Position numbers and translations under genes: made by a program. DNA of 44,937 nucleotides from Candidatus Rokuibacteriota bacterium (GTDB taxonomy: Bacteria; Methylomirabilota; Methylomirabilia; Rokubacteriales; CSP1-6), in contig JBBIIW010000003.1 of NCBI GenBank assembly GCA_037446305.1, positions 1 to 44,937 on the forward strand. The letters run 5' to 3'. Position 1 is the stretch's first letter. Every line of letters begins with the position of its first letter. Shown here piece after piece: positions 6,154-44,749 of the stretch. A model generated the notes under the pieces. It did no database searches, had not been told where the DNA came from, and saw only the letters and a program-made list of their open reading frames with translations.

Positions 6154-7136
6154 GGCGCCGCCGCCGATGGCGTGCCCCGAGTGGCGACGCGGACGATGGA
6201 GTCGACGAACGGCACGAAGGGGTCGAACCCCAGCACGGCCGGGGCGTCGGCGACGAAGTTCGAGGTGGCGTTGACGTCGTAGAAGTACACGCGGCCGTCG
6301 TCGCGGCCGACCAGGTACTCGATGCCGCCCACGTCGATGGCCGCCGCGCGCGCGATGGCGATGGCCTGCTCGACGACCGCGCCTGGAGGCTCGTACCGGG
6401 TCACGTCGAGGCCCGGCGCCAGCTCCACCGGGCAGGCCGCGGCGTCGCCGGCCGGGGGCGGCGGGTCAGCCTGGCAGAGGTCGGCCGGGCACAGGTTGAA
6501 GCGGTCGGGGGCGCGGACGATGCGGATCGCGTACAGGAAGCGTCCGTCGAGGACCTCGACCCGGACGATCGCTCCTCCCTCGGGCTCGACGTACTCCTGC
6601 AGCAGAGCCGTGCCGTCGGGGCCGAGGTCCAGCGCGGACAGCGCGCTCTCGATCTCCTCGCGCGCCTCGAAGCGCCGGATGCCGGCCCCGGAGCCGCCCA
6701 CGTTGGGCTTGAGCAGGACGGGGAAGCGGAGGCCGTCGAGCGCCTTGAGCACCTGGTCGCGGTGGTTCAGCACGACGGCGCGCGGATACCGGACCCCGAG
6801 CCGCTCGAAGAGGTCCAGCTGGAGCGCCTTCGACTTCTCGAACCGGTAGGCGGCGACCGGATTGATCACGGGAATCCCGATGGCCTCGTAGTGGTGCAGC
6901 AGCGGCTCGGCGTAGAAGAGGACGCTGCCGTGCCCGCGGCGGTGCGACGAGGGGCTGGACCGGTTGACGACGACCGAGTAGCGCCGCTGGCGGTCGCCCG
7001 GGTCGTAGGCGTGGCTGGAGTGGTCGATTTTCTCGAAGGGCAGCCCCCGCCTCTGGAGCTCCGCGATGAGGCGCCTGGACCACTCCGGGTGCTCGTCCAG
7101 GATCGCGATCGGCGCGTGCAAATGGCTGTCTGGCAT
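6150..7136 (-). CDS. ATP-grasp (RimK/glutathione-synthetase-like) ligase. Its stop overlaps the sulfite reductase start as GTGA.
   Basis: ...FEKSKALQLDLFERLGVRYPRAVVL...FPVLLKPNVGGSGAGI...LLQEYVEP...VRVEVLDGRFLYAIR...GGIEYL is an ATP-grasp fold signature. The start could instead be at 7151. Confidence 0.7.
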   Translation of the reverse strand: MPDSHLHAPIAILDEHPEWSRRLIAELQRRGLPFEKIDHSSHAYDPGDRQRRYSVVVNRSSPSSHRRGHGSVLFYAEPLLHHYEAIGIPVINPVAAYRFEKSKALQLDLFERLGVRYPRAVVLNHRDQVLKALDGLRFPVLLKPNVGGSGAGIRRFEAREEIESALSALDLGPDGTALLQEYVEPEGGAIVRVEVLDGRFLYAIRIVRAPDRFNLCPADLCQADPPPPAGDAAACPVELAPGLDVTRYEPPGAVVEQAIAIARAAAIDVGGIEYLVGRDDGRVYFYDVNATSNFVADAPAVLGFDPFVPFVDSIVRVATRGTPSAAAP

Positions 7137-7206
7137 CGCTCTGTGCCTCATGGACGTTTTTCGATCGGGAATGTAGCATTGGCCGGACAGCCAGGCAAGA
7201 GGCCCC

Positions 7207-7238
7207 TTGACCTTCCCCCAAGGGGAAAGGTCTAGGCT
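7207..7238 (+). promoter_or_regulatory. MerR-family (CueR-box-like) promoter. TTGACC, a long spacer carrying the dyad ACCTTCCCC-N-GGGGAAAGGT, then TAGGCT.
   Basis: TTGACCTTCCCCCAAGGGGAAAGGTCTAGGCT closely resembles the E. coli PcopA CueR operator (TTGACCTTCCC...GGAAGGT). The over-long 19-20 bp spacer is a MerR-family hallmark. It lies about 10 nt upstream of the regulator ATG. Confidence 0.6.
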
Positions 7239-7248
7239 CGGGGACGCG

Positions 7249-7686
7249 ATGAAGGGTGGGCTGAAGATCGGCGAGCTGGCCCGGCAGGCGGGGCTCACCG
7301 CGCGGGCCATCCGGTTCTACGAGCGCAAGCGTGTCCTGCCGCCGCCGCGACGCTCCGCGAGCGGATACCGGCTCTACGGCCCGGAGGCCGTCGAGATGCT
7401 GCGGTTCGTGAAGCAGGCGACCGGCCTGGGCCTGACACTGGCCGAGATCAGGGAGATCATCGCCATCCGCCGGGGTGGCCGCCCGCCGTGCGACCACGTC
7501 CACCAGCTGCTGCGGGCCAAGGCGGTCGAGCTGGATCGCAAGCTCGAGGACCTGGTCGCCCTCCGCCGCCGCATCCGGCAAAGTCTCGCCGCCTGGAGCC
7601 GAAGGCCGCGCGGGGCCGCCGCCGTCTGCCACCACATCGAGGGCCCGCACCGCGGCGGTGGCCTCCAGGGGCGGCGAGACGCCTGA
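7249..7686 (+). CDS. MerR-family metal-responsive transcriptional regulator
   Basis: N-terminal HTH LKIGELARQAGLTARAIRFYERKRVLPPPRRSASGYRLY. Dimerisation helix and a C-terminal Cys/His loop (PPCDHV ... AVCHHIEG). Its stop overlaps the ATPase ATG (TGATG). Confidence 0.85.
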   Translation: MKGGLKIGELARQAGLTARAIRFYERKRVLPPPRRSASGYRLYGPEAVEMLRFVKQATGLGLTLAEIREIIAIRRGGRPPCDHVHQLLRAKAVELDRKLEDLVALRRRIRQSLAAWSRRPRGAAAVCHHIEGPHRGGGLQGRRDA

Positions 7687-10121
7687 TGGCGGCCGGCAAG
7701 CTCCAGGTCAAGGTGGGCGGGATGGCCTGCTCCTTCTGCCTGGAGACGATCAGGAAGGGGCTCGGCCGGATCCCGGGGGTCAGCGAGGTCAACGTCAGCC
7801 TGGCCCACGAGGAGGCCTTGATCACCTACGACCCCGGCCGCGTCACGCCGGCGACGCTCACCGACACGCTCCGCAGCCTCGGCTATACCGTCCGGGATCC
7901 GAACAGGGTCCGCACCTTCGAGGAGGAGGAGGCCGAGCTGCGCCGGGAGCGGGAGCGCCTGATCGTCGCCGGAGCCCTGGCCTGGATCGGCCTCCTGTTC
8001 ATGCTGCTCATGTGGACCGGGCGCCACCATCCCCATGTCCACGGGATCATGGCCGGGCTCGCCGTCGCGATGGTGTTCGGGCTGGGGCTCCCCATCCTGC
8101 GCACGGCCTGGGCCTCGGTCCGCCGGCGGATCCTGAACCAGCACGTGCTGATGGAGGTGTCGGCCTTCAGCGGACTCGTGGGCGGGGTGATCGGTCTCGT
8201 GCGCCCCCAGATCTTCCCGAGTCACGAGTTCTTCGGGGTGGCGGTGTTCGTCACCGCCTACCACATCCTCGGCGGGTACGCCTCCCTGCTCGTGCGGACC
8301 CGGGCCTCGCAGGCGGTCAAGAAGCTGCTCTCGCTCCGGCCGCCGGCCGCGTGCGTCGTCCGCGACGGGGAAGCGCTCGAGGTGCCGGTCGCCGAGGTGC
8401 GGCGCGGGGACCTCGTCCGGATCCGCCCCGGTGAGCAGATCCCCGTCGACGGCGTGGTGGTGGAGGGCGCCTCGGCGGTCGACGAAAGCCTGGTCACCGG
8501 CGAGCCCCTGCCGCGCGAAAAGGTGCCCGGCCAGGAGGTCATCGGCGGCTCGGTCAACCGCCACGGCTCGCTGCTGGTGCGCGTCACGCGCGTGGGCGAG
8601 GAGAGCTTCCTCGAGCAGGTGGCGCGGCACATCCAGGAGGCGCGCGCGCTCAAACCAGGCCTCCTCCTGCTCCTGGACCGGATGCTCGAATACTTCGTCC
8701 CCGGCGTCCTCCTGGTCGGGCTGGCGGCCTTCACGCTCTGGACGCTGGGGGCCTGGGCCGTCCGGGGCGCCCCCGACTGGGAGCGGGCGGCGCTCGCCGC
8801 GCTGGCCGTGCTGGTCATGGGCTACCCGTGCGCGCTGGGGATGGCGACGCCGCTGGCCATGATCCGCGGGGGCGGCGAGGCCGCGCGCCAGGGCATCCTC
8901 ATGCGCAGCGCCGCCTCGTTCCAGGCCTTCAAGGACGTCTCGGTCGTCGTGCTCGACAAGACCGGGACGATCACCCGCGGCGAGCCCCGGGTGGTGGATG
9001 TCGTGCCGGCCGCCGGCGGGGAGGCCGACGACGTGCTGGCCCTCGCGGCCTCGGCCGAGCAGCTCTCGGAGCATCCCCTGGCCCGGGCGGTCGTCGAGGC
9101 GGCCCGGGCCAGGGGCCTTGCCCTGGAACCGGTTCACGACTTCGAGACGGTGGCGGGCAAGGGGGTGCGGGCCAGGGCCGGCGGCGAGGCGGTCCTGGTG
9201 GGGACGCTGCGGTTCCTCCGGGAGGCCGGGATCGACACCGGCCACCTCGAGACTCTGGCCGAGGCGCATGAAGCTCGCGCCCAGACGGTCATCGCGGTGG
9301 CGAGCGAGGGGCGGCCTGTCGGTCTCGTCACGCTGGCGGACACCATCAAGGCCGACGCGAAGGAGGCCATTGACCGGCTTCGCGCCGCTGGCCTGGCGCC
9401 GGTCATGATCACCGGGGACAATCCCCGAACCGCCCGGGCGGTGGCCGACCAGGTGGGCATCCAGGAGATCCGGGCCCAGGTACTGCCGCAGGACAAGGCC
9501 GCGCGCGTCCGGGAGCTGCAGCGGGCGGGCAAGCGGGTGGCGATGGTGGGAGACGGCATCAACGACGCGCCGGCCCTCACGCAGGCCGACGTGGGCCTCG
9601 CCATCGGAACCGGCACCGACATCGCGATCGAGTCGGCCGACGTGGTGCTGGTCGGGGAGCGGCTGAGCGCGGTGGTGGACGCCTACCGGAGCGCGCGGCG
9701 CACGTACGGCAAGACGGTCCAGAACCTCTCGCTGGCGTTCTCCTTCAACGGCATCGGGGTGCCCCTGGCGACCACCGGACTCGTCTCCCCCGTCTGGGCC
9801 ATGGCCGCCATGGCCGCCAGCGTGACGGCCGTGCTCCTGAACTCGTTCCTGGGCCGGCTGGTCCCGCCGCTCCGCCGGCCGAAGCCCACGGCCCGACAGG
9901 TGACGCTCTTCGTACCGAGCCTCCGCTGCCAGGGGTGCGTGAACACCCTCCGCGACGCGCTCGGGAAGCTGCCGATCGTGGTGGGGGTCGAGGGCGACCC
10001 CGTGAGCAAGCAGCTGGTGGTGACCGTGCGGGACGGCCAGGGGCGGGTGACGGCGGTGGAGGAGGAGATCACCCGGCTCGGCCACGTGGTGGGCGAGCAG
10101 GCGCGTGAGGTGCGTTCATGA
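7686..10121 (+). CDS. Heavy-metal translocating P1B-type ATPase with an N-terminal HMA domain (GMACSFC) and a C-terminal HMA-like domain (LRCQGC)
   Basis: DKTGT phosphorylation site, TGDN, GDGINDAP, TGEP actuator motif, and membrane motif VMGYPCALGMATP in place of the usual CPC. Confidence 0.9.
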   Translation: MAAGKLQVKVGGMACSFCLETIRKGLGRIPGVSEVNVSLAHEEALITYDPGRVTPATLTDTLRSLGYTVRDPNRVRTFEEEEAELRRERERLIVAGALAWIGLLFMLLMWTGRHHPHVHGIMAGLAVAMVFGLGLPILRTAWASVRRRILNQHVLMEVSAFSGLVGGVIGLVRPQIFPSHEFFGVAVFVTAYHILGGYASLLVRTRASQAVKKLLSLRPPAACVVRDGEALEVPVAEVRRGDLVRIRPGEQIPVDGVVVEGASAVDESLVTGEPLPREKVPGQEVIGGSVNRHGSLLVRVTRVGEESFLEQVARHIQEARALKPGLLLLLDRMLEYFVPGVLLVGLAAFTLWTLGAWAVRGAPDWERAALAALAVLVMGYPCALGMATPLAMIRGGGEAARQGILMRSAASFQAFKDVSVVVLDKTGTITRGEPRVVDVVPAAGGEADDVLALAASAEQLSEHPLARAVVEAARARGLALEPVHDFETVAGKGVRARAGGEAVLVGTLRFLREAGIDTGHLETLAEAHEARAQTVIAVASEGRPVGLVTLADTIKADAKEAIDRLRAAGLAPVMITGDNPRTARAVADQVGIQEIRAQVLPQDKAARVRELQRAGKRVAMVGDGINDAPALTQADVGLAIGTGTDIAIESADVVLVGERLSAVVDAYRSARRTYGKTVQNLSLAFSFNGIGVPLATTGLVSPVWAMAAMAASVTAVLLNSFLGRLVPPLRRPKPTARQVTLFVPSLRCQGCVNTLRDALGKLPIVVGVEGDPVSKQLVVTVRDGQGRVTAVEEEITRLGHVVGEQAREVRS

Positions 10122-10657
10122 GAACGTGGGTATGGACGGCGATCATCGTGGCCGCCCTGGCAACCGGGTACGTGGCCGGGTATGTCGTCAGGACCCCGGC
10201 CGGCGGCGGCATGGCGGTGGCCGGCGTGCCGGTCGCGCCGCCCGTGAAGGGCTACGCCGAAGGGCAAACGATTCACTTCCTCCACACCGAGGCGTCCGAT
10301 CCCGAGGTGGCGAAGATGTTGACGGACATGATGGGCGGCTCCCCGGTGCTGGTGGTCCCGGCCCTGGCAAAGGCTCCCGAGGTTCTCCTGGCGCCGGTCT
10401 ACGTCTTTACCAACGGGGTGAAGGGCGACGGCCCCTTCGGCTTCCAGCCCGACGTGTTCGATTCGCCACCGGGCACCGAGGGCTATCGGCCTCTGCGGAC
10501 GGTGCACCTCGTCCGATGGACGAACGAGGGCGCTGCGCGTGAGCTGAAGGCCGTGACGGAGGTGAAGGCGGCGGCGATGGCGGGCGACGTGACGATCGCG
10601 CAGTCCGGCATCGTCGTCAACATGCCGATGATGACGTGGCCGGGCGGCCGCCGCTGA
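10118..10657 (+). CDS. Membrane-anchored hypothetical protein, translationally coupled (ATGA) to the ATPase
   Basis: N-terminal TM helix WVWTAIIVAALATGYVAGYVV followed by a soluble domain. No family recognised with confidence. Confidence 0.6.
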   Translation: MRTWVWTAIIVAALATGYVAGYVVRTPAGGGMAVAGVPVAPPVKGYAEGQTIHFLHTEASDPEVAKMLTDMMGGSPVLVVPALAKAPEVLLAPVYVFTNGVKGDGPFGFQPDVFDSPPGTEGYRPLRTVHLVRWTNEGAARELKAVTEVKAAAMAGDVTIAQSGIVVNMPMMTWPGGRR

Positions 10658-10742
10658 GGCGGGCGAACCAGGTGAGGCGCTCCCCGGTAGAGGACGTTCA
10701 GATCCGGGCGGCGGTGGCCGACACCGGGTGCCGGGTCGCCTG

Positions 10743-11030
10743 ATGAACGCGGCGCGGCTCCTGGTCGAGATCCTCACCGCCCCCGGCTGAGGCAAGTGCG
10801 AGGAGGCCAGGCGGCTGGTCTTCAAGGCGATCGAGATGGCGAGGGGACGCTTCACCGACCTCGAGGTGCGGGAGTGGAACCTGGCCGAGCACCCCGAGCT
10901 CGGGCCCCGGTACGGCGTGATGGCGACGCCAGCCGTCGTGATCAATGGCCGGCTCGAGTTCCGCGGGGTGCCCAGGGAAGCGGCGCTGCTCGAGCGGCTC
11001 GAGGCCGCCCGAAGCAGGGCCGGCGGCTGA
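10743..11030 (+). CDS. Small thioredoxin-fold protein (redox-active disulfide protein 2 / Thioredoxin_3-like). In-frame TGA at 10788-10790 gives a U-G-K-C motif. Candidate selenoprotein.
   Basis: ATG 10743 is in frame with ORF 10836..11030. Read through the TGA: MNAARLLVEILTAPG-TGA-GKCEEARRLVFKAIE...YGVMATPAVVINGRLEFRGVP. The TGA sits at the first Cys of the family's PGCxxC motif. Confidence 0.65.
10802..10823 (+). other. Hairpin GGAGGCCAG-gcgg-CTGGTCTTC starting 11 nt after the TGA. Candidate bacterial SECIS.
   Basis: 9-bp stem (two G-U pairs) with a 4-nt G-rich loop. The 11-nt spacing from UGA matches the minimal E. coli fdhF SECIS geometry. Confidence 0.45.
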
Positions 11031-11033
11031 GCC

Positions 11034-11891
11034 ATGAGGGAGGCGCCGCGCCCCACCGGCCACGAGCCGGCCCCGGTTGCGGTGGCCGGGCCGCGGCGGC
11101 AGTCAGCGTCTGCGGTAACGCTCCTGGCCGCGCTCGGCGGCCTCGGGCTCCTGGCGCTCGTCGGGTGGGTGGCGTGGAACCAGGGAGTCCTGGTCGGTCT
11201 CCGGTGGGCGGCCTTCGAGGCGCCGCTCGCGCTCGCCGCCTTCGGCTTCATCGCCGGGGTCGGCGCGTTCTTCGCGCCGTGCGCGTTCGCGCTGTTTCCC
11301 GGCTCCATCTCGTACTCCCTGACGTCGGTCGGCCCCGGACGCGAGAGCGTCGGGCACGCGCTGGCCCTCGGCGCCAGCTGCGCCGGCGGGAGCGCACTCT
11401 TCTTCGCGCTGACCGGCCTGGCGATCACGCTCGTCGGTGGATCGATCGCGCCGTACCTGATCGCCACCAAGCCGGCGATCGCACTCGCCGTGGTGCTCCT
11501 CGGCCTGGTGCTGGTCGCCGACGTGCGCCTGCCGTCGGTCGGCGGGCCGATCGGCCGCATCGGGGCCGGACTCCCGCCCGCGGCCGGCCTCGTCCTCTAC
11601 GGGTTCGGCTACGCGCTGGCCTCCACGGGCTGCACGCTCCCCATCTACGTCTCGATCGTCGTGCTGCCGCTGACGAGCGGCTTCGCCGGGGCAGCGCTGC
11701 TCACCTTCGCCAGCTTCGCGTCGGCGATGGCCCTGATGATGCTCCTCACGAGCCTCCTGGTGGGGCTCGCCAGGGCGAGCCGGCTTCGCCGGCTCCAGGC
11801 CTCGACGGTCTGGATCAAGCGGGCGAGCGGGGCGATCCTGATCGCGGCGGGACTCTACCTCGGCTACTACTACGTCGCAGCGGGGATGTGA
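11034..11891 (+). CDS. ccdA: CcdA/DsbD-family transmembrane thiol:disulfide electron transporter
   Basis: Multi-TM protein with the two membrane-embedded Cys motifs FFAPCAFALFP and STGCTLP. It starts 3 nt after the thioredoxin-like gene. Confidence 0.8.
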   Translation: MREAPRPTGHEPAPVAVAGPRRQSASAVTLLAALGGLGLLALVGWVAWNQGVLVGLRWAAFEAPLALAAFGFIAGVGAFFAPCAFALFPGSISYSLTSVGPGRESVGHALALGASCAGGSALFFALTGLAITLVGGSIAPYLIATKPAIALAVVLLGLVLVADVRLPSVGGPIGRIGAGLPPAAGLVLYGFGYALASTGCTLPIYVSIVVLPLTSGFAGAALLTFASFASAMALMMLLTSLLVGLARASRLRRLQASTVWIKRASGAILIAAGLYLGYYYVAAGM

Positions 11892-11910
11892 CGTGACGGA
11901 GGGAGGATTC

Positions 11911-12243
11911 ATGCGACCTCTTCATCTGGCGCTCGCGCTGACGATCACCGTGGCCGCCTGGCTCGTGCCCCACCTGGCGGACGCCGGTCTGAAGGTCGTG
12001 ACGATCGACGTGCGGGGCATGGTGTGCCGGGGCTGACCGGCCACCATCGCCACAGCCTTGGAGAGGCTGCCGGGCGTGAAGCGCGCGGCGGTGGTGCTGG
12101 AGACGAGACAGGCCCGAGTGACGTACGACGACAAGAAGCAGACACCGGAGAAGCTCGCCGCGGCCATCGATATGCTGGGCTTCAAGGCATCGGTCCGTTC
12201 GGTCGCCGGGGCGCCGGCGGCGGAGGCGCCGGCCGGTCGTTGA
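11911..12243 (+). CDS. Secreted MerP-like heavy-metal-associated (HMA) protein. In-frame TGA at 12034-12036 gives GMVC-R-G-U. Candidate selenoprotein.
   Basis: ATG 11911 has a GGAGGGAGG RBS and is in frame with ORF 12058..12243. Signal peptide MRPLHLALALTITVAAWLVPHLADA, then LKVVTIDVRGMVCRG-TGA-PATIATALERLPGVKRAAVVLE. The TGA replaces the second Cys of GMxCxxC. Confidence 0.65.
12053..12069 (+). other. Hairpin CAGCCT-tggag-AGGCTG starting 16 nt after the TGA. Candidate bacterial SECIS.
   Basis: Perfect 6-bp stem with a 5-nt loop containing GG. Confidence 0.4.
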
Positions 12244-12285
12244 GGCATGGCGAGCGTCACGCTTTCGGTTTCGGGGAGGACGGGC

Positions 12286-13635
12286 ATGGAACGCGGGTAT
12301 GACCTGGTCGTGGTGGGAACGGGCGTGGCGTCGGCCGTCGCCTCCCGGTGCCGGGAGGCGGGCTGGACGGTGGCGGTCGTCGACTCGCGCCCCTTCGGCG
12401 GCACCTGCGCGCTGCGAGGCTGCAACCCCAAGAAGATGCTCGTGAGCGCGGCGGAGGCCATCCATGCCGCCTCCCGCCTGGCCGGCAAGGGCGTGCGCGC
12501 CGACGGCCTGACGATCGACTGGCCGGCGCTCGTGCGCTTCAAGCGAACGGCGACCGACCCGGTGCCCGCGCGGACCGAGCAGACATGGGCGCAGGCCGGG
12601 GTGGAGATGTTCCACGGCCGGGCCCGCTTCGTCGGACCCACGACGCTGGCCGTGGGAGATGATCGCCTCACCGGCACCCGTGTGCTGATCGCCGCCGGCG
12701 CCATGCCCCGACGGCTGCCGTTCGCCGGGGCCGAGCTGCTGACGACGAGCGAGCAGTTCCTGGAGCTGGACGCGCTCCCGACCCGGCTGCTGTTCGTGGG
12801 CGGCGGATACATCTCCTTCGAGTTCGCCCACGTGGCCGCCCGCGCCGGGGCGGAGGTGACGATTCTCCACCGGGGGGACCGGGCCCTGGAGGGGTTCGAC
12901 CCCGACCTGGTGGACCTGCTGGTCAGGCGGACCCGGGAGCTCGGCGTCCGGGTCGAGCTGGCCACGGAGGTGCGGGGCGTCGAGCGGAGCGACGGCGGTC
13001 TGATCGTCCGGGCGCTGGCGGGGGGTCGCGAGCGCCGCTTCGAGGCCGACCTGGCGATCCACGGGGCCGGACGCGCCCCGGAGATCGATGACCTCGACCT
13101 CGAGGCGGCGGGGGTGAAGCGCGAACGGCGGGGCGTCACCGTGAACGACTTCCTGCAGAGCGTGTCCAACCCGGCGGTGTACGCAGCCGGCGACGCCGCG
13201 GCCAGCGGGGGCCCGCCGCTGACCCCCAAGGCCGCCCACGACGCCGAGGTGGTGGCCTGGAACCTCCTGCACGGCAACCAGCGCCGGCCGAACTACGAGG
13301 GCCTGGCCTCCGTCGTGTTCACCGTGCCGCCGCTGGCCTCGGCGGGCCTGGGGGAGGCCGCGGCCCGGGCCCGGGGCCTCCGATTCCGCGTCCGCTGGCA
13401 GGAGACCTCGCAGTGGTTCAGCGCCCGACGCCTGGCCGAGACGGGCGCCGGCTTCAAGGTGCTGGTCGAGGAGGGCAGCGGCCGCATCCTCGGCGCGCAC
13501 CTGTTCGGGCCCCACGCCGACGAGGTCATCAACACCTTTGCCGTCGCCATCCGGGCCGGCATCCCGGCCGACGAGCTCCGGCAGGCCCTGTTCGCCTACC
13601 CGACCAGCAGCGCGGACATCCCCTTCATGCTCTGA
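12286..13635 (+). CDS. Class I pyridine nucleotide-disulfide oxidoreductase (glutathione reductase / MerA-core-like flavoprotein)
   Basis: YDLVVVGTGVAS FAD motif, redox-active GGTCALRGCNPKK, a second Rossmann motif LLFVGGGYISFEFA, and AAGD. C-terminal motif AYPTSSAD in place of HPTSSE. The ATG at 12286 with a GGGGAGGA RBS is preferred over 12247. Confidence 0.85.
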   Translation: MERGYDLVVVGTGVASAVASRCREAGWTVAVVDSRPFGGTCALRGCNPKKMLVSAAEAIHAASRLAGKGVRADGLTIDWPALVRFKRTATDPVPARTEQTWAQAGVEMFHGRARFVGPTTLAVGDDRLTGTRVLIAAGAMPRRLPFAGAELLTTSEQFLELDALPTRLLFVGGGYISFEFAHVAARAGAEVTILHRGDRALEGFDPDLVDLLVRRTRELGVRVELATEVRGVERSDGGLIVRALAGGRERRFEADLAIHGAGRAPEIDDLDLEAAGVKRERRGVTVNDFLQSVSNPAVYAAGDAAASGGPPLTPKAAHDAEVVAWNLLHGNQRRPNYEGLASVVFTVPPLASAGLGEAAARARGLRFRVRWQETSQWFSARRLAETGAGFKVLVEEGSGRILGAHLFGPHADEVINTFAVAIRAGIPADELRQALFAYPTSSADIPFML

Positions 13636-13769
13636 GCGTCCGCCGCCGGCCCCGCGGCGCCGATGAGCGCCCCCGCAGGCGCCGGAGGCGCAGCCATGCG
13701 CGTACGCGAAGAGTCAGGTCCGGTCGAAAACCTCCGAGCGGCGACCGGCGAACCGACCGACGTCATCGC

Positions 13770-13797
13770 AAACCCTCCGGCGGCCCGCGACGAATAC
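13770..13797 (+). promoter_or_regulatory. ECF-type promoter candidate P1: AAACCC-N15-CGAATAC
   Basis: One of four identically spaced copies in the window. It ends 14 nt before the GTG at 13811 of an ECF sigma gene. Confidence 0.55.
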
Positions 13798-13810
13798 GTC
13801 ATGACCCAGC

Positions 13811-14521
13811 GTGCACGGTTCCCCGATGAGCGCGATGAACACGGCGGCGCCGGTGGCGGCGGCCCGCCCTCGCGGCGGCAGCCCAAACGAGCCGCGCGAC
13901 TGGCAGGCCGAGTTCGAGCGGTCGGTCCTGGTGCACCGGGACTGGCTGCATCGCCGCGCGCTCAAGCTGTGCCGGAATCCGGCGGATGCCGAGGATCTGG
14001 TCCAGGAGACGTACCTCCGCGCCTTCCGGCGCTTCGACAGCTTCACTCCCGGCACGAACTGTGGCGCCTGGCTGGCCACGATCTTGCGAAACACGTTCCT
14101 CAACCTTGTCACCCGGCAGACCCGCGAAGCGCCGGGACGGGACGCGACCACGGTGGAGCGCGAGCTGGCCTTGCGGGGGGAACTGGCGCCGGACCCGGAG
14201 CAGGAGCGCGTGCGCCACGTCATCGACGACCGGCGGCTGGCCGACGCCGTCGAGGCTCTTCCCGGAAAGCTCCGGTGGGCCGTGATCCTGGCGGACGTCG
14301 AGGAGTGCTCCTACCGCGAGATCGCCGAGATCTGCGGGGTGCCGGTCGGCACGGTGATGTCCCGCCTGTTCCGGGGGCGCCGGCGCCTCCGGAGGGCCTT
14401 GCGGAACGGCCGCGCGGACGCGCCGCCAGGGGCGCTTGCTGCTTCCCGTCCGCCTGTCGGCGGAGCCTCCCGGCCGCGGCGCCGGCCACGCTACCGGCAG
14501 CCTCAGCCCGCCAGCCGGTAG
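13811..14521 (+). CDS. ECF (group 4) RNA polymerase sigma factor
   Basis: Region 2 (DAEDLVQETYLRAFRRFDSF...GAWLATILRNTFLN) and region 4 (LPGKLRWAVILADVEECSYREIAEICGVPVGTVMSRLFRGRRRL). The ATG at 13826 is an alternative start. Confidence 0.8.
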   Translation: MHGSPMSAMNTAAPVAAARPRGGSPNEPRDWQAEFERSVLVHRDWLHRRALKLCRNPADAEDLVQETYLRAFRRFDSFTPGTNCGAWLATILRNTFLNLVTRQTREAPGRDATTVERELALRGELAPDPEQERVRHVIDDRRLADAVEALPGKLRWAVILADVEECSYREIAEICGVPVGTVMSRLFRGRRRLRRALRNGRADAPPGALAASRPPVGGASRPRRRPRYRQPQPASR

Positions 14522-22489: not shown

Positions 22490-23884
22490 ATGTGGGGGCC
22501 TGTCGTCCAAGCGGCGAGAGTGGCGGTCCTGCTTGCCGGTCTGGGACTCCTGGGCGCCGCCGGCCCCGGGCTCGCACAGCCCCCGGAACCGGAGAAGCTG
22601 ACTCTCGACGAGGTCGTCGATCTCGCGCTGGCGAGGAACGCCGCGGTGCGAGCGGCCGCGCGCGAGGTCGAGGCTGCGGCCAAAGCCCACGCGGCCTCCC
22701 GCGGCCGCCTGTGGCCGTTCGCCGACATCTTCGGCGACTGGCAGTACTCGGGCCCCGACGAGGAGAACAAGACCCGGCTGCTCGCCAATATCGGCCGCAT
22801 GCCGAAACTCGGACCAACGCTGAGCGACAACCAGCCCATCGGCGGCATCCCGCGCCGGGAATTCGACCACAACCTCTACGCGGTTGGGGTCCGGGTCACC
22901 TACCCTCTCTACGTCGGGGGTCGGATCGTCGCCGAGATTGAAGCCAACCGCCTCTTGACCCTGCTTGCGAGAGAGCGGGCGACGCAGACCGTGGACGAGC
23001 TGATCTTCAACCTCAGCAGCACCTTCTACAGCATCCTGCGGCTCCAGGAGAACGCCAGGGCCACCGAGGCCAGCGTCCGGGCTCTCCAGGAGGCCCAGAA
23101 GAACATCCGCGCGCTGGTCGAAGTGGGGCGGCTCCCGCGGGCCGATCTCTTCAAGGTGAACACCCGTCTGGCGGCCGTCCGCCAGGAGCTGATCAAGGTG
23201 CGGAACGAGGTGGAGCTCGCGCACGCCGTCCTCAAGACGCTCATGGGGCTCGAGGTCACGGAGCCGCTGGGCGTAAAGGGGGCGCTGGGCAGCGAGCCCG
23301 TGGCCGTCGACCTGCCACTCGACCTCAGCGAGGCCGAACGGCGCCGGCCCGAGCTGCAGGCGGCGCGCCGTGCGGTCGAGGTCCAGGCGCAGCGCGTCCG
23401 GATCGCCCGGGGGGCCCGGCTTCCCCGGGTGGACGCGAGGGCCCAGTACGCGGGGGGAGCCGGGGAGTCGGATTTCGGGAAGCCGCTGGGTGACTTCGTC
23501 GTCGGCGTGAACATCTCGATCCCGATCTTCACCGGTGGCCAGCTCCAGGCCCGGATCGCCGAGGAGGAGGCCCGGCTGGCCCGCGCTCGGGAGGCGTTGG
23601 AGAAGGCGCGGCTCGACGTGCAGCTGGACGTGCAGACCGCCCACCTCGCCCTCGTCGAATCGAGCGAGCGGATCAGGGCGGCACAGGTGGCCCTGGAGGA
23701 CGCGCGCGAGGCGCTGCGGGTGGAGCAGCTCAAAACCCAGGTCGGCCGAGGCATCGTCGAGGACCTGCTCGACGCCCAGGCGGCGGAGCTCCAGGCGCAG
23801 ACCAACTACACGCGCGCGCTCGCCGACTACAACACGGCGTTGGTGGCAAGGCGGAAGGCGATCGGGCGCGTCCGGGAGCCGTAG
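22490..23884 (+). CDS. TolC-family outer-membrane efflux protein
   Basis: Signal peptide, then LTLDEVVDLALARNAAVRAA and two OEP repeats with typical coiled-coil segments. Confidence 0.85.
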   Translation: MWGPVVQAARVAVLLAGLGLLGAAGPGLAQPPEPEKLTLDEVVDLALARNAAVRAAAREVEAAAKAHAASRGRLWPFADIFGDWQYSGPDEENKTRLLANIGRMPKLGPTLSDNQPIGGIPRREFDHNLYAVGVRVTYPLYVGGRIVAEIEANRLLTLLARERATQTVDELIFNLSSTFYSILRLQENARATEASVRALQEAQKNIRALVEVGRLPRADLFKVNTRLAAVRQELIKVRNEVELAHAVLKTLMGLEVTEPLGVKGALGSEPVAVDLPLDLSEAERRRPELQAARRAVEVQAQRVRIARGARLPRVDARAQYAGGAGESDFGKPLGDFVVGVNISIPIFTGGQLQARIAEEEARLARAREALEKARLDVQLDVQTAHLALVESSERIRAAQVALEDAREALRVEQLKTQVGRGIVEDLLDAQAAELQAQTNYTRALADYNTALVARRKAIGRVREP

Positions 23885-23902
23885 CCAGGAGGGCGGAGGG
23901 CG

Positions 23903-25453
23903 ATGATGGCGCGGATCAGGAGCTGGGTGAACGGCGGTGTGGGACAGGCGGTGAGCCGCTTCCGCGATCGCCGCGCCGGCTGGTTGGGTCGCCACGCCGC
24001 GGCCGTCCAGAAGACGATCGTCACCGCCGTCATCCTCCTTGCCCTCTACTGGGCCGTCACGGCGATCGTCGCGTACATCACCGCGCCGCGGCTGGAGATG
24101 ACCATGAGCCCGGTCGTGGGCCGCATCGCCGTCGTCGCCCAGCCGGCCACCCGCGTGCCCATCGCCCGGAAGGTCACGTACACGGGCAGCGTCGCGTCGT
24201 TCCAGGATGTGACTGTCTATCCCCGCCATGAGGGCTGGGTGAAGGACTTTCAGCTGTACGAAGGCGACCACGTGACGCGGGGGCAGGTGATTGCGCGGCT
24301 GGACACCGCCGAACTCGAGCGCGCGGTCCAGCAGGGGCGGGCGCTGGTCACCCAGGCCGAGGGCGAGGTGCGGGAGGCGGAGGCGCGGCTCGCGGCGGCG
24401 AACGTCGGCGTTCTCAAGGCGGCCGAAGAACGGGCGCAGGCGGAGGCGGCGCTCAAGGAGGCCGAGGCGTTGCTGGCGGTCGCGCGGGCGAATCTTGAGG
24501 CGGCCCGTCCCGGGGTGGTCGAGGCTCGAGCCCAGGCGGAGTATGTCGAGGGGGAGTTCAGGCGCGACGAAACCCTCGTGGCGGGCGGCGCGATCAGCCA
24601 GGCCTCTTTCGACCAGCGACGTGCGCAGTTCGTCAGCGCCCGCGAGCGCATAGCCCAAGCCGAGGCGCGCGTCGTCGAAATGCAGGCTCAAGTCGCCTCG
24701 GCGGAGGCCAAGATCGTCAGCGCACGCGCGGCCATCCGGCGTGCGGTCGCCAGCCAGCAGGCCGCGGTGAGCCACGTTCGCCACGCCGAGGCGGGAGTCG
24801 CTGCGGCCAGAGCCAGGCTCGCCGCGGCCCGGGAGGAGCACGAGCGGCGCCAGGTCGTGCTCGGGTACACCACGATCGAGGCCCCGATCACGGGGCGGGT
24901 GGCCAAGCGCCACATCTACGCCGGCATCCTGGTGAAGCCAGGGATGCCGATCGTGGACCTCCAGGACCTGAGCCGGGTTCGTGTGCAGGCGAAAGTAGCC
25001 GAGCGCGACCTTCCCTTCGTGCGGGTCGGCACGACGGAGGCCATCGTCCGCTTCCCGACCCTGCCCGAAGGGCAGCGGGAACGCCGGGCCCGGGTCACAA
25101 CGGTGTTTCCTCAGCTCGATCCGGTGAGCCGGACGGCCACCGTGGAGATCCTGCTCGACAACCCGGGCGAGCTGATCAAGCCGGAGATGTACGCGGTCGT
25201 GGACCTGGTCCTGGAGCGGAAGGAGAAGGCGATTGTCATCCCGCGCCAGGCGGTCCTCGACGGGCCGGACGGCAAGCCGATCGTGTACGTCACCGACGCG
25301 GTCACCGCCATGTCGCGACCCGTGACGCTCGGGATCGCGGAGGGCGAGCGGGTCGAGGTCCTGGATGGGGTCAAGGAGGGCGAGATGATCGTCGCCCGGG
25401 GTCAGCGGAACCTCTCGGAGGGGGCGCAGGTCCAGGTCGTGGGCGGGCTGTGA
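23903..25453 (+). CDS. Efflux periplasmic adaptor (MFP/HlyD family) with an unusually long alpha-helical hairpin
   Basis: N-terminal TM helix, lipoyl-like halves (GWVKDFQLYEGDHVTRGQVIARLD ... IEAPITGRVAKRHIYAGILVKPGMPIVDL), an intervening Ala/Glu/Arg-rich helical region, and beta-barrel plus MP domains. Confidence 0.85.
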   Translation: MMARIRSWVNGGVGQAVSRFRDRRAGWLGRHAAAVQKTIVTAVILLALYWAVTAIVAYITAPRLEMTMSPVVGRIAVVAQPATRVPIARKVTYTGSVASFQDVTVYPRHEGWVKDFQLYEGDHVTRGQVIARLDTAELERAVQQGRALVTQAEGEVREAEARLAAANVGVLKAAEERAQAEAALKEAEALLAVARANLEAARPGVVEARAQAEYVEGEFRRDETLVAGGAISQASFDQRRAQFVSARERIAQAEARVVEMQAQVASAEAKIVSARAAIRRAVASQQAAVSHVRHAEAGVAAARARLAAAREEHERRQVVLGYTTIEAPITGRVAKRHIYAGILVKPGMPIVDLQDLSRVRVQAKVAERDLPFVRVGTTEAIVRFPTLPEGQRERRARVTTVFPQLDPVSRTATVEILLDNPGELIKPEMYAVVDLVLERKEKAIVIPRQAVLDGPDGKPIVYVTDAVTAMSRPVTLGIAEGERVEVLDGVKEGEMIVARGQRNLSEGAQVQVVGGL

Positions 25454-25486
25454 GGCTGGCGCACATCGGCTGAAGGAGCGCCGCGC

Positions 25487-29074: not shown

Positions 29075-29090
29075 CAAGAGGAGAACGGCG

Positions 29091-29576
29091 ATGAAAATGC
29101 ATGGCGTGATCACCACACGTTCGCTGATCGCCCTGGCGGCAATCGCCGCGATCCTGGGCGTGGTCGTGACCGGGGCCTGGGCAGGCGAGAAGATGCTGCC
29201 GGGCCGGGTCATGGCCATGTCGAAGTACTCCTTCGACGAGACCGTGAGCCGGGTGAAGCAGGCGATCGAGGGCCAGCAGATGATGGTGGTCTTCAGCGCC
29301 GACCACCAGGCGATGCTCCAGATGGTCGGGCTCCAAACCAAAGGCATGGTCGGGATCGAGTTCTTCCACCCGCGCTACGGCAAGGTCATCGTCGAGAACG
29401 ATCACGCCGCGGGCCTCGAGATCCCCCTCCGGCTGGTGATCATGGAGGGCGACATGGGGACCATGCTGACCTATCAAAAGCCATCGCACACCTTCAGCAA
29501 GTACCCCAGGCTCAAGAACCTCGGTGAGGAGCTGGACGGCGTGCTGGCGACGATCGCGGCCTCGGTTTCAAAGTAA
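29091..29576 (+). CDS. Secreted DUF302 domain protein (copy 1)
   Basis: AAGAGGAG RBS, signal peptide ...ILGVVVTGAWA, and a DUF302-like core (FDETVSRVKQAIEGQQMMVVFSADHQAML...EIPLRLVIME..GTMLTYQKP). Confidence 0.8.
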   Translation: MKMHGVITTRSLIALAAIAAILGVVVTGAWAGEKMLPGRVMAMSKYSFDETVSRVKQAIEGQQMMVVFSADHQAMLQMVGLQTKGMVGIEFFHPRYGKVIVENDHAAGLEIPLRLVIMEGDMGTMLTYQKPSHTFSKYPRLKNLGEELDGVLATIAASVSK

Positions 29577-29589
29577 GGGTGGGATCCAG

Positions 29590-42316: not shown

Positions 42317-42384
42317 TCGGGTCCGGGAGCGGCGGCGCCGCTCGCCGAGCGCCGGCGGGGGGAGCTCGCCCAGGCCCGCGCGGC

Positions 42385-43089
42385 GTGGCGCCGGTGGCGC
42401 GGTCGACCGGACGCCGCGCGGTGAGGGTCGAGATCCGGGCGCTGGTGCCGCGACCGGCGCTGGCGCTGCTGCACGGCCCGCCGCGCCGGCGCAAGGTCGC
42501 GCGGACCGTGGGCGTGCTGTTCGTCGACATCCAGGGCTGCACGCGCCTGTGCGAGGACCTGCCGCCGGGGGAGATGGCGGCGGTGATCGAGCGCTACTTC
42601 TCGCGGTACCTCGACGCGGTCCGGGCGGCCGGGGGCGAGGTCACCGAGGTGCTGGGCGACGGGCTCCTGGCCTTGTTCGACGCGCCGGCCGTGGAGGCGG
42701 CGGCGCGGGCCGCCCTCGAGGCCGCGCGGGTGGTGCGGCGGGACACGTGCGCGCTCAACGGCCGCCGCGGTGACCACGACCCGATCACCGTGAACATGGG
42801 CCTGAACGCCGGCGTGGCGATGGTCGGCTTCACCCGCCTGCGCGGGCGGTCGGGCGAGCGGTGGGTGTACGGGGCAGCGGGGCCGGTCACGAACATCGCC
42901 GCCCGGCTCTGCGCGCTGGCGACCGGGGGCCAGATCCTCGCTCCGCGGGCCGTGGCCGAGTGCCTGCCGCCCGAATGCCGCTGGCGCCCGCTGGGGGCGC
43001 AACCGCTCAAGAACGTGACCGGCCCCGTCGAGATCGTGGAGATCCTGCCGGACGGCGCGCCGGCGGCGAGGAGGGGGACCGATGGCTGA
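42385..43089 (+). CDS. Stand-alone class III nucleotidyl cyclase catalytic domain
   Basis: VGVLFVDIQGCTRLCE, GGEVTEVLGDGLLALF, NMGLNAGVAMVG, YGAAGPVTNIAARL. The start is uncertain (GTG at 42385, 42394 or 42421). The 3' end overlaps merA by 8 nt. Confidence 0.75.
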   Translation: MAPVARSTGRRAVRVEIRALVPRPALALLHGPPRRRKVARTVGVLFVDIQGCTRLCEDLPPGEMAAVIERYFSRYLDAVRAAGGEVTEVLGDGLLALFDAPAVEAAARAALEAARVVRRDTCALNGRRGDHDPITVNMGLNAGVAMVGFTRLRGRSGERWVYGAAGPVTNIAARLCALATGGQILAPRAVAECLPPECRWRPLGAQPLKNVTGPVEIVEILPDGAPAARRGTDG

Positions 43090-44749
43090 ACGCGTTCAGG
43101 TCAGGCTCGACGTCCAGGGGATGACCTGCGATGGCTGTGCCGCGCACGTCGAGCAGGCCCTGCGCGGTGTGGCGGGCGTCGAGGAGGCGAAGGTTCCGAG
43201 CTGGCGCGGGGGGCAGGCGACGGTGACGGCCGGCCCCGCCGTGGTGGGCGACGAGGCCCTGGTCCGGGCCGTCGAGGCGGCCGGCTACCGCGCCCAGGTC
43301 CGCGAGCGCCGCGCGCTCCGCGAGGGCCAGCGCGTTCCCGCCCGGGGCGACAACACCTACGACCTGATGGTCGTGGGCGCCGGCTCGGCCGCCTTCGCGG
43401 CGGCCATCAAGGCCGCCGACCTCGGCGCCCGGGTGGCGCTGGTGGAGGCGGGCACCATCGGCGGCACCTGCGTGAACGTCGGCTGCGTGCCCTCGAAGAC
43501 GCTCATCAAGGCGGCCGAGCTCTGCTACCGCTCCGCGTACCCGAAATTCGAGGGGCTCACCGCCTGCCCGCCCCCCGCCGACTGGCAGCGCGTCGTCCAG
43601 CAGAAGGACGAGCTGGTCGCCGCCCTCCGGCAGGGCAAGTACGTGGACGTGATGAAGGTCTACCCGGGCATCACGCTCATCCGGGGGCGGGCGCGCCTGA
43701 CCGGGGGCGCGGCGCTGAGCGTGGACGGCGTCACCCACCGCCCGGGCAAGATCCTGGTCGCGACCGGGTCGCTGCCCTGGGCCCCACCGATCCCGGGTCT
43801 GGCCGAGGCGGGCTTCCTCGACTCGACCGATGCGCTGAGCCTGCCGGGCCTGCCGGCATCGCTCCTGGTCCTCGGCGCCGGCGCCATCGGCCTCGAGCTC
43901 GGGCAGCTCTTCGCCCGCTTCGGCGTGCGGGTGATGATCCTCGAGGCCGGCCCGCACGTGGCGGGCGGCGCGGAGCCGGAGATCGGGCGCGCGCTGACCG
44001 CCTATCTGGCGCAGGAAAAGATCCGGGTCTGCACGAACGTCAGGATCGAGCGGGTGGAGCGTACCGGCGGCGAGTACGCCGTGCACGCGGTCATCGACGG
44101 GCGGCCCGAGGTCTGCCGCGCCGAGCAGGTCCTCGTGGCCACCGGGCGGCGACCCAACACCGCGGACCTGGGTCTCGCCGCGGCCGGGGTCGAGCTGGGC
44201 CCGCGGGGGGAGATCAGGGTGAACGAACATCTCCAGACGGCGAATCCGGACATCTACGCGGCCGGCGACTGCGTCGGCGAGCCGATGCTCGTCTACGTCG
44301 CCGCCTACGCGGGCGGCCTGGCCGCCGAGAACGCCCTGACCGGGGCCGGCCGCGTGTACGACCTCTCGGCGCTCCCGCACGTGATCTTCACCGACCCCCA
44401 GGTGGCGAGCGTGGGCCTGACCGAGCGGGCCGCCAGGGCCGCGGGCAAGGCCGTCCGGACCGCCGTGCTCCCCCTCGAGCACGTGCCCCGGGCGCTGGCG
44501 GCCCGGGATCTGCGGGGGCTGTTCAAGCTGGTGGCCGACGGGGAGACCGGCAAGCTGCTCGGCGCCCACATCCTGGCCGACGAGGCGGGGGAGGTCATCC
44601 AGGCGGCGACCCTGGCGGTCAGGTTCGGGCTGCGTGTCCAGGACCTGATCGACACCTTCCACCCCTACCTCACGATGGCCGAAGGGCTCAAGCTGGCGGC
44701 CCTGAGCTTCGACAAGGACGTGGCCCGGCTCTCGTGCTGCGCCGCCTGA
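43082..44749 (+). CDS. merA: Mercuric reductase with an NmerA HMA domain
   Basis: GMTCDGC NmerA motif, GGTCVNVGCVPSK redox centre, HPYLTMAEGLKLAALSF, and the C-terminal Cys pair LSCCAA. Confidence 0.95.
   Translation: MAERVQVRLDVQGMTCDGCAAHVEQALRGVAGVEEAKVPSWRGGQATVTAGPAVVGDEALVRAVEAAGYRAQVRERRALREGQRVPARGDNTYDLMVVGAGSAAFAAAIKAADLGARVALVEAGTIGGTCVNVGCVPSKTLIKAAELCYRSAYPKFEGLTACPPPADWQRVVQQKDELVAALRQGKYVDVMKVYPGITLIRGRARLTGGAALSVDGVTHRPGKILVATGSLPWAPPIPGLAEAGFLDSTDALSLPGLPASLLVLGAGAIGLELGQLFARFGVRVMILEAGPHVAGGAEPEIGRALTAYLAQEKIRVCTNVRIERVERTGGEYAVHAVIDGRPEVCRAEQVLVATGRRPNTADLGLAAAGVELGPRGEIRVNEHLQTANPDIYAAGDCVGEPMLVYVAAYAGGLAAENALTGAGRVYDLSALPHVIFTDPQVASVGLTERAARAAGKAVRTAVLPLEHVPRALAARDLRGLFKLVADGETGKLLGAHILADEAGEVIQAATLAVRFGLRVQDLIDTFHPYLTMAEGLKLAALSFDKDVARLSCCAA

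What the first reader, a model, noticed from the sequence alone, without database searches (positions are those of the whole stretch)
12286..13635. Flavoprotein disulfide reductase with a MerA-like Tyr replacing the His-Glu catalytic dyad, and no NmerA or C-terminal Cys pair
The C-terminal interface motif reads AYPTSSAD, where glutathione and lipoamide reductases have HPTxSE. The acid-base His is Tyr and the Glu is Ala. As I recall the family, a Tyr at this position is characteristic of mercuric reductase; the bona fide MerA in this window has PYLTMAEG. This enzyme lacks both the NmerA domain and the C-terminal CC that hand Hg(II) to the active site. The adjacent UxxC thioredoxin-like protein could act in trans as a substrate or metal-delivery partner.
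Basis: partly seen in the sequence, partly recalled or inferred. Interest (0 to 1): 0.6.

Follow-up and report, generated by a model that had tools for sequence, protein, structure and literature searches.

The report
Short MerA-like flavoprotein reductase (GbsMerA type)
This gene encodes a flavoprotein reductase with tyrosine in place of the usual catalytic histidine; it belongs to a widespread clade with one published, crystallised mercury-reducing member, so the enzyme type is known and only its attachment to a selenoprotein metal-handling operon is unusual.

Summary
The gene at 12286-13635 encodes a 449-aa group-1 flavoprotein disulfide reductase. It has the redox pair GGTCALRGC and ends ...AYPTSSADIPFML. 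Tyr438 sits at the His position and Ala443 at the Glu position of HPxxxE. There is no NmerA domain, and only three cysteines in total, none C-terminal.

This architecture is already described. The best solved relative is GbsMerA of Gelidibacter salicanalis (PDB 8K40/8K41; E 5e-128; model TM 0.98). It is a published NADPH-dependent Hg(II) reductase with the same Tyr and the same missing parts.

The protein belongs to a large clade found in many bacterial and archaeal phyla. In 127 representatives the His position is Tyr in 87 and Phe in 34, and the Glu position is never Glu. The clade lies outside canonical MerA in my tree and fails two of the four published MerA sequence signatures.

Most members stand alone. 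Some sit in metal operons, for example ArsR-MerT/P in Flavobacteriaceae.

Here the gene follows a MerR-regulated cassette: P1B-ATPase, UxxC thioredoxin-like protein, CcdA-like protein, exported CxxU HMA protein. None of 18 informative metagenomic cassettes carries the reductase; it follows the cassette only in this window and two loci of one related genome.

Soft-metal (Hg) reduction is the most likely function. Supplying electrons to the selenoprotein relay is the main rival.

The parts
12286..13635 (+). GbsMerA-type flavoprotein reductase, 449 aa (FAD, NAD(P)H and dimerisation domains)
   Evidence: Pfam Pyr_redox_2, Pyr_redox and Pyr_redox_dim. Best solved relative is 8K40 at E 5e-128. AlphaFold model has pLDDT 96 and TM 0.98 to 8K41.
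12273..12280 (+). Shine-Dalgarno GGGGAGGA, 5 nt before the ATG at 12286
   Evidence: Read from the sequence. Homologue N-termini agree with this start.
12406..12423 (+). Redox-active pair Cys41-x4-Cys46 (CALRGC), followed by Asn47
   Evidence: The cysteines are near-invariant in the clade. Position 47 is D 42 / N 36 (GbsMerA has Asp47).
12868..12882 (+). H195-R196-G-D-R199, probable NADPH 2'-phosphate site
   Evidence: Aligns with His194/Arg195 of the GbsMerA-NADPH complex.
13594..13617 (+). AYPTSSAD: Tyr438 at the His position and Ala443 at the Glu position of HPxxxE
11911..12243 (+). Exported HMA protein with CRGU (TGA at 12034-12036), immediately upstream (42 nt gap)
   Evidence: The TGA is conserved as CxxU, UxxC or UxxU in relatives.
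11034..11891 (+). CcdA/DsbD_TM-like membrane protein with two Cys motifs (APCAF, TGCTLP)
   Evidence: the Pfam match is below the gathering score. Conserved in 46 metagenome loci.
10743..11030 (+). Thioredoxin_3-like protein with UGKC (TGA at 10788-10790)
   Evidence: TGA is present in 22 of 22 alignable relatives. A 9-bp hairpin starts 11 nt after the TGA.
10118..10657 (+). DUF7482 protein
7488..10121 (+). P1B-type ATPase with HMA domains (true start probably later than 7488)
7207..7686 (+). MerR-family regulator at the head of the operon
43082..44749 (+). Canonical MerA with NmerA and C-terminal CC, used for comparison

Best explanation
The gene encodes a homodimeric, FAD-containing, probably NADPH-dependent reductase of the GbsMerA type. 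NADPH reduces FAD, and FAD reduces the Cys41-Cys46 disulfide. The substrate is handled at that dithiol next to Tyr438 of the other subunit. The clade has given up the His-Glu acid-base pair needed for efficient thiol-disulfide interchange. Its one assayed member reduces Hg(II), and less well Ag(I). The most likely substrate here is therefore a thiophilic metal ion, with Hg(II) favoured by precedent, reduced in the cytoplasm. The enzyme has no NmerA and no C-terminal Cys pair, so the metal must reach the buried dithiol on small ligands or on a separate carrier. The UxxC thioredoxin-like protein of the same operon is the obvious candidate carrier. Shown here: the sequence features, clade membership, fold, operon position and distribution. 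Inferred: the substrate, the NADPH preference and any hand-over from the thioredoxin-like protein.
For: The closest solved protein is GbsMerA over its full length: E 5e-128 and 430 bits, against 208 bits for the next family. The model matches 8K41 at TM 0.98, rmsd 1.1 A and 43% identity. GbsMerA reduces Hg(II), then Ag(I), then GSSG; it lacks NmerA and the CC motif, its Y437F mutant is inactive, and it raises Hg tolerance in E. coli (PMC10587081). Tyr438, the Y175 gate and H195/R196 are all conserved with GbsMerA. No clade representative has Glu at the dyad position, and only 2 of 127 have His. The gene lies 42 nt after an exported CxxU HMA gene, in an operon headed by a MerR-family regulator and a P1B-ATPase. 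Clade members have joined metal genes independently elsewhere. Examples are ArsR-MerT/P-reductase in Maribacter and Croceitalea, a P-type ATPase upstream in a Sphingobacteriales MAG, and YHS, HMA, MerT and MerR among neighbours.
Against: Most clade members (about 9 in 10 of some 70 loci) have no metal genes beside them, and their neighbours are heterogeneous. The genome's second copy (contig C9, 70% identical) is in a non-metal context. The cassette ATPase/Trx-U/CcdA-like/HMA-U occurs without this reductase in all 18 informative metagenome loci. A canonical MerA lies in the same window. 27% of clade representatives have Phe, not Tyr, although Y437F inactivated GbsMerA. GbsMerA's Asp47 is Asn here. 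The published assay followed NADPH oxidation with free HgCl2 and did not measure Hg(0) formed from thiol-bound Hg. No activity was measured for this protein.
Confidence: 0.45

Rival explanations
1. The enzyme is a dedicated electron source for the selenoprotein relay. NADPH reduces the reductase, which reduces the selenenylsulfide of the UxxC thioredoxin-like protein. That protein passes electrons through the CcdA-like membrane protein to keep the exported CxxU HMA protein reduced and able to bind metal.
For: CcdA/DsbD-type proteins are known electron conduits from cytoplasmic thioredoxins to extracytoplasmic thiol proteins (established knowledge). Sister cassettes carry a signal-peptide TlpA/Redoxin-like WUxxC protein after the HMA gene, which is the classic CcdA client. 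The reductase gene is closely spaced with, and probably co-transcribed with, the relay genes. In this lineage it occupies the slot after the HMA gene.
Against: GR-fold enzymes without a mobile C-terminal redox centre are not known to reduce protein disulfides, because the dithiol is buried (established knowledge of high-Mr TrxR). The clade lacks the His-Glu pair that speeds interchange. All 18 other informative cassettes manage without it. No thioredoxin-family neighbour recurs across the clade. Operon-type and stand-alone copies differ at only 5 diagnostic positions, none suggesting a new docking site.
Confidence: 0.25
2. The enzyme is a general small-molecule reductase, acting on a low-molecular-weight disulfide, persulfide, selenium compound or similar. 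It is the same as the stand-alone copies, and it sits next to the cassette only as loosely related redox support or by accident of gene order.
For: The clade is sister to E. coli glutathione reductase, not to MerA, in the tree. The NCBIfam GR, MerA and Lpd models score equally, and all fall below their cut-offs. GbsMerA oxidised NADPH with GSSG at about a fifth of the Hg rate. Most members stand alone in varied contexts. The operon-type copies are a young offshoot of stand-alone Methylomirabilota copies with almost no diagnostic changes.
Against: Loss of the His-Glu dyad across the whole clade argues against ordinary disulfide interchange. The gene order HMA-reductase is kept in three loci of two genomes with close spacing. 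The clade has been recruited repeatedly into metal operons in other phyla.
Confidence: 0.25
3. It is an inactive or decaying paralogue.
For: None beyond the missing dyad.
Against: The frame is intact, and GC3 of 0.94 is typical of the genome's genes. All cofactor and redox motifs are conserved. The copy is 78-82% identical to relatives in the same position. The model pLDDT is 96.
Confidence: 0.03

Closest known systems
GbsMerA, Gelidibacter salicanalis PAMC21136 (PDB 8K40/8K41; Pardhe et al. 2023, PMC10587081)
   Same: The length and four-domain fold match. Both have CALRGC, Tyr at the His position (Y437 there, Y438 here), no NmerA and no C-terminal Cys pair. The Tyr gate in GGGYI and the His-Arg NADPH site are shared. 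E 5e-128, TM 0.98.
   Different: Identity is only about 43%. Asp47 is Asn here and Ser442 is Ala here. The Flavobacteriaceae branch is deep within the clade. GbsMerA sits in an ArsR-MerT/P operon, whereas this gene follows a selenoprotein cassette with a P1B-ATPase. This protein has not been assayed.
Canonical mercuric reductase MerA (Tn501 / Bacillus RC607; TIGR02053), including the copy at 43082-44749
   Same: Both are group-1 FDR folds with a CxxxxC pair and an aromatic residue (Tyr605, or Phe in archaea) in place of the catalytic His. NADPH-dependent two-electron chemistry is likely in both.
   Different: This protein has no vicinal C-terminal cysteines, no Tyr264 equivalent and no NmerA. 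It is 33% identical to the window's MerA, scores 278 bits against a cut-off of 454, and lies outside the MerA clade.
Glutathione reductase / glutathione amide reductase (E. coli Gor; 2r9z)
   Same: The length is the same and the C-terminus ends at the same point. The GxGxxG and CxxxxC motifs are shared. Gor is sister to the clade in the tree. IMG names many members 'glutathione reductase'.
   Different: The His-Glu dyad is replaced throughout the clade. The protein scores 279 bits against a cut-off of 480 on NF004776.
RclA (E. coli Cu(II) reductase) and other short MerA-like enzymes
   Same: Both are short forms without NmerA and without the C-terminal Cys pair, and both are linked to metal or oxidant stress.
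   Different: RclA keeps His426-Glu431 (PMC10587081). This protein scores 179 bits against a cut-off of 740 on NF040477. RclA lies on a separate branch.

Membership tests
Canonical MerA (criteria of Boyd & Barkay 2012 / Christakis et al. 2021, PMC8261052) | Redox-active Cys pair (207/212, B. cereus numbering) | tested here: met
   C41 and C46 in GGTCALRGC.
Canonical MerA (criteria of Boyd & Barkay 2012 / Christakis et al. 2021, PMC8261052) | Vicinal Cys pair at the C-terminus (628/629) | tested here: not met
   The protein ends ...SSADIPFML and has no Cys after C46. The window's MerA ends SCCAA.
Canonical MerA (criteria of Boyd & Barkay 2012 / Christakis et al. 2021, PMC8261052) | Tyr264 | tested here: not met
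   MAFFT places the MerA GKY tyrosine on E98, where the clade column is E/R/K. BLAST places it on A102. The GbsMerA paper places it on Val96. No alignment gives a Tyr.
Canonical MerA (criteria of Boyd & Barkay 2012 / Christakis et al. 2021, PMC8261052) | Tyr605 (bacteria) or Phe605 (archaea) | tested here: met
   Y438 aligns with the Tyr of PYLT in the window's MerA.
Canonical MerA (criteria of Boyd & Barkay 2012 / Christakis et al. 2021, PMC8261052) | Score above the TIGR02053 cut-off and placement inside the MerA clade | tested here: not met
   The score is 277.8 bits against 454.45. Three MerAs form their own clade, apart from the family.
GbsMerA-type clade (no curated model; defined here by PDB 8K40 and its relatives) | Full-length similarity far above that to other FDR families | tested here: met
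   430 bits to 8K40 against 208 bits to the next family. The clade is monophyletic with SH-aLRT 100.
GbsMerA-type clade (no curated model; defined here by PDB 8K40 and its relatives) | Same fold as the crystal structure | tested here: met
   TM 0.98 and rmsd 1.1 A over 448 columns.
GbsMerA-type clade (no curated model; defined here by PDB 8K40 and its relatives) | CxxxxC plus an aromatic residue at the His position, no Glu, no NmerA and no C-terminal CC | tested here: met
GbsMerA-type clade (no curated model; defined here by PDB 8K40 and its relatives) | Asp47 next to the second Cys (proposed metal-transfer residue) | tested here: not met
   The residue here is Asn47. The clade column is D 42 / N 36 / E 10 / Q 8, so it is not a clade-wide feature.
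GbsMerA-type clade (no curated model; defined here by PDB 8K40 and its relatives) | NADPH-dependent Hg(II) reduction | not testable with these tools
   A biochemical assay is needed.
Glutathione reductase | His-Glu dyad HPxxxE and a score above the model cut-off | tested here: not met
   The motif is Y438...A443. The score is 278.6 bits against 480 on NF004776.
High-Mr thioredoxin reductase | Second redox centre on a C-terminal extension (GCUG or CxxxxC) | tested here: not met
   There is no extension and no C-terminal Cys or Sec. TIGR01438 scores 152 bits against 476.

The most novel reading that the evidence does not exclude
In this lineage the short reductase and the UxxC thioredoxin-like selenoprotein form a two-component mercuric (or soft-metal) reductase. 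The free Sec/Cys protein would do the work of both NmerA and the C-terminal Cys pair, carrying metal that entered through the CxxU HMA protein and the CcdA-like membrane protein to the buried dithiol. This would be a selenium-based equivalent of the MerP-MerT-NmerA-MerA ligand-exchange chain.
Probability: 0.12. Interest if true: 0.75.

Novelty: new member of a known kind. Interest (0 to 1): 0.35.

Why it matters
This gene mainly extends that type to Methylomirabilota.

Two results have wider use. First, the type is a very large, unnamed clade across bacteria and archaea. It fails the sequence criteria used in mer-gene surveys and is often labelled 'glutathione reductase', so surveys of mercury-reduction potential may miss it or mislabel it. 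The physiological substrate of most members is open, because the Tyr is Phe in a quarter of them and most lack metal neighbours.

Second, this lineage has attached the enzyme to a cassette built from selenocysteine proteins. That gives a natural system for testing whether such short reductases need a separate carrier protein.

Tried and rejected
The contigs of the closest metagenomic homologues (P0004-P0008) could therefore not be inspected. Context came from the genome search, the fetch from genomes and the search for related loci instead.
- The Rfam scan of 10600-12400 gave no SECIS family match, only chance-level hits.
- Single-sequence folds downstream of the two TGA codons show hairpins, but their energies are not better than shuffles (z -0.4 to -0.8). 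Two of the four folded stretches, from relatives, were mis-positioned by me.
- The promoter/terminator scan of 7000-14200 was uninformative.
- Complex prediction for reductase dimer plus thioredoxin-like protein was not sent. The code-11 fragment lacks the active site.
- I looked for a recurrent cytoplasmic reductase in other copies of the cassette and found none.
- I considered that the enzyme is a true MerA and rejected membership on the C-terminal CC, Tyr264, the model score and the tree.
- I considered that the operon copy had been re-tooled relative to stand-alone copies. Only 5 diagnostic positions differ (51, 89, 108, 236, 441), which is not convincing.

Full report
**The observation**

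The + strand ORF 12247..13635 most likely starts at the ATG at 12286. A GGGGAGGA Shine-Dalgarno sequence lies five bases upstream, and all close homologues begin MER(G/T)YDL. The 449-aa product has the three Pfam domains of a pyridine-nucleotide disulfide oxidoreductase. It contains GGTCALRGCNPKK and ends ...LFAYPTSSADIPFML.

HMMER alignments to glutathione amide reductase 2r9z and glutathione reductase 4dna place Tyr438 on the catalytic His and Ala443 on the Glu of HPxxxE. The alignment to the window's own MerA places Tyr438 on the Tyr of PYLT.

There is no N-terminal HMA domain. The protein has only three cysteines (C22, C41, C46), so it has no C-terminal pair. The second reductase in the window (43082-44749) is a textbook MerA with GMTCDGC, GKY, PYLTMAEG and terminal SCCAA.

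**What the protein is**

The best solved relative is not GR, Lpd or MerA. It is 8K40/8K41, at E 5e-128 and 430 bits over the full length, against 208 bits for the next family. An AlphaFold model built from a 38-sequence alignment (pLDDT 96) superposes on 8K41 at TM 0.98 and rmsd 1.1 A with 43% identity. Lpd, MerA and GAR structures follow at TM 0.90-0.94.

8K40 is GbsMerA of Gelidibacter salicanalis (PMC10587081). The authors report the following:
- It lacks NmerA and the C-terminal Cys-Cys motif.
- The His-Glu pair is replaced by Tyr437 and Ser442.
- The Y437F mutant is inactive.
- NADPH is oxidised fastest with HgCl2, then AgNO3, GSSG and MnCl2.
- Expression raises Hg tolerance of E. coli.
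- The gene sits in an ArsR-MerT/P operon.

The Tyr174 gate (Y175 here) and the His194/Arg195 NADPH contacts (H195/R196 here) are conserved. GbsMerA's Asp47 is Asn47 here.

**The clade**

A search of 1.84 billion cluster representatives returned at least 150 clusters scoring 315 bits or more. The best 80 span Methylomirabilota, Acidobacteriota, Nitrososphaeraceae, Chloroflexota, Cyanobacteria, Bacillota, Bacteroidota, Pseudomonadota, methanogens and others.

Column counts in 127 full-length representatives are:

| Position | Residues |
|---|---|
| Two redox Cys | near-invariant |
| His position | Tyr 87, Phe 34, His 2 |
| Glu position | Ser 53, Tyr 31, Ala 17, never Glu |
| Residue after the second Cys | Asp 42, Asn 36 |
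| Column aligned with MerA's Tyr264 | Glu/Arg/Lys |

No NCBIfam model reaches its cut-off. The GR, MerA and Lpd models score 279, 278 and 265 bits.

In a 52-row maximum-likelihood tree the clade is monophyletic (SH-aLRT 100) on a long stem. It is sister to E. coli Gor (96) and lies outside a clade of three MerAs. The reference sampling is small and Gor is a long branch, so the sister relation is provisional.

By the criteria used in mer surveys (PMC8261052), the protein meets two of four signatures (redox pair, Tyr605) and fails two (C-terminal CC, Tyr264). It works like a short MerA by precedent but is not a member of MerA proper.

**Context across the clade**

I took the same-strand neighbours within 200 nt for about 70 loci and scanned them against Pfam. 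They are heterogeneous, with no recurrent partner. Metal-related families appear in a minority: YHS 4, HMA 3, MerT 2, MerR 2.

Maribacter and Croceitalea reproduce the published ArsR-MerT/P-reductase operon, and a Sphingobacteriales MAG has a P-type ATPase upstream. The clade has thus been recruited to metal operons several times, but most members stand alone.

**Context here**

The gene is last in a + strand run:
- a MerR-family regulator (7207-7686);
- a P1B-ATPase with HMA domains;
- a DUF7482 protein;
- a Thioredoxin_3-like protein with in-frame TGA (UGKC);
- a CcdA/DsbD_TM-like membrane protein with two Cys motifs;
- a signal-peptide HMA protein with CRGU.

The genome has tRNA-Sec, selA and selB on contig C40, and a selD that itself contains TGA. 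In relatives the thioredoxin TGA is present in 22 of 22 alignable loci. The HMA motif alternates between CxxU, UxxC and UxxU, and it matches NCBIfam NF041115 'UxxU metal-binding (seleno)protein' below its cut-off.

I retrieved 46 metagenomic loci with the CcdA-like protein as query. The module ATPase-(DUF7482)-Trx-U-CcdA-like-HMA-U is conserved, but none of the 18 loci with at least 600 nt after the HMA gene (11 with at least 1.5 kb) contains the reductase. The UxxC-type cassettes instead carry an exported TlpA/Redoxin-like WUxxC selenoprotein in that slot.

Among 60 related genomes, the reductase follows the CcdA-like and HMA genes only in two loci of one genome (78-82% identity). Copies at 66-73% identity, including this genome's own second copy on contig C9, have none of the cassette genes beside them. 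The C9 copy has no metal-related neighbours by eye; the other loci were searched only for the cassette proteins.

In the tree the operon-type copies form a young subclade (96) inside a Methylomirabilota clade (99) of stand-alone copies. Only five positions distinguish them. The reductase is a recent, lineage-specific addition to a cassette that normally works without it.

**How it most likely works**

Shown: fold, cofactor motifs, redox pair, Tyr, clade membership and operon position.

Inferred: NADPH reduces FAD, which reduces Cys41-Cys46, and the substrate is handled at the dithiol beside Tyr438 of the partner subunit.

The whole clade lacks the acid-base pair, the one assayed member reduces Hg(II), and the clade is repeatedly found in metal operons. 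I therefore favour reduction of a thiophilic metal ion, at about 0.45. Lacking NmerA and the C-terminal pair, the enzyme would need metal delivered on small ligands or on a carrier. The UxxC protein is the obvious candidate, but nothing here shows contact.

The main rival, at about 0.25, is that the enzyme feeds electrons from NADPH into the Trx-U, CcdA-like and exported Sec-protein relay. The relay itself is well supported by the CcdA family's known role and by the TlpA-like client in sister cassettes. However, GR-fold enzymes without a mobile C-terminal redox centre are not known to reduce proteins, and other cassettes do without it.

A third reading, also at about 0.25, is a general small-molecule reductase like the stand-alone copies.

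Several points weigh against a simple 'MerA' label:
- A canonical MerA lies in the same window.
- A quarter of the clade has natural Phe at the Tyr position. Archaeal MerAs also have Phe605.
- The published assay used free HgCl2 and followed NADPH oxidation.

**Verdict**

The gene is a new member of the GbsMerA-type clade. Its attachment to a selenoprotein metal cassette is the only unusual aspect, and the function of that attachment remains untested.

The scan's earlier notes on this same window had already flagged the two selenoprotein genes and the relay idea. I re-verified the conserved TGA codons independently.

Noticed in passing
L118:7093-7647 (also L120, L122, L123, L124, L137, L152): In sister cassettes the gene after the HMA selenoprotein is an exported TlpA/Redoxin-like protein. 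It is split by gene-calling at an in-frame TGA (motif W-U-P-D-C), so it is probably another selenoprotein and the periplasmic client of the CcdA-like protein.
   Followed up: partly
L118-L158; window 12025-12036: The exported HMA protein family switches the position of selenocysteine. It is CxxU in the window type, UxxC in another type and UxxU in three loci (L134, L139, L142).
   Followed up: partly
G000 contigs C6, C542, C84, C222, C247 (own genome): tblastn with the TlpA-like query hit several further redoxin-like genes in the window's genome with TGA at the first position of the (C/U)xxC motif. This suggests a large thiol-oxidoreductase selenoproteome.
   Followed up: no
G000:C67:2724-3668: The genome's selD carries one in-frame TGA, so it is probably a selenocysteine-containing SelD. 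selA, selB and tRNA-Sec are clustered on contig C40.
   Followed up: partly
window 7488-10121: The P1B-ATPase reads GYPCALGMATP where Cu and Zn pumps have CPC. It has HMA domains at both ends (GMACSFC at the N-terminus, CQGC at the C-terminus). Its metal specificity is unclear.
   Followed up: no
window 41884-44749: The canonical MerA has no merT, merP or merR beside it. The upstream ORF (41884-43089) looks by eye like a nucleotide-cyclase-type signalling protein, but I did not check it against Pfam.
   Followed up: no
G000:C9:6818-8164: A second copy of the same reductase type (70% identical, ...LFAYPTAASDIPFML, CALRGCR) follows a 521-aa FAD-type oxidoreductase. It has no metal genes nearby.
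   Followed up: partly
window 22490-30090: An outer-membrane factor, a CusB/HlyD-like adaptor and an RND pump are followed by two DUF302 proteins. Together with the ATPase operon and MerA this makes the window look like a metal-resistance island. GC content drops to 0.66-0.69 over 24-32 kb.
   Followed up: no
window 13811-14521; L122:6675-7556: An ECF-type sigma factor follows the cassette both here (after the reductase) and in sister cassettes (after the TlpA-like gene). The two are only about 33% identical.
   Followed up: no
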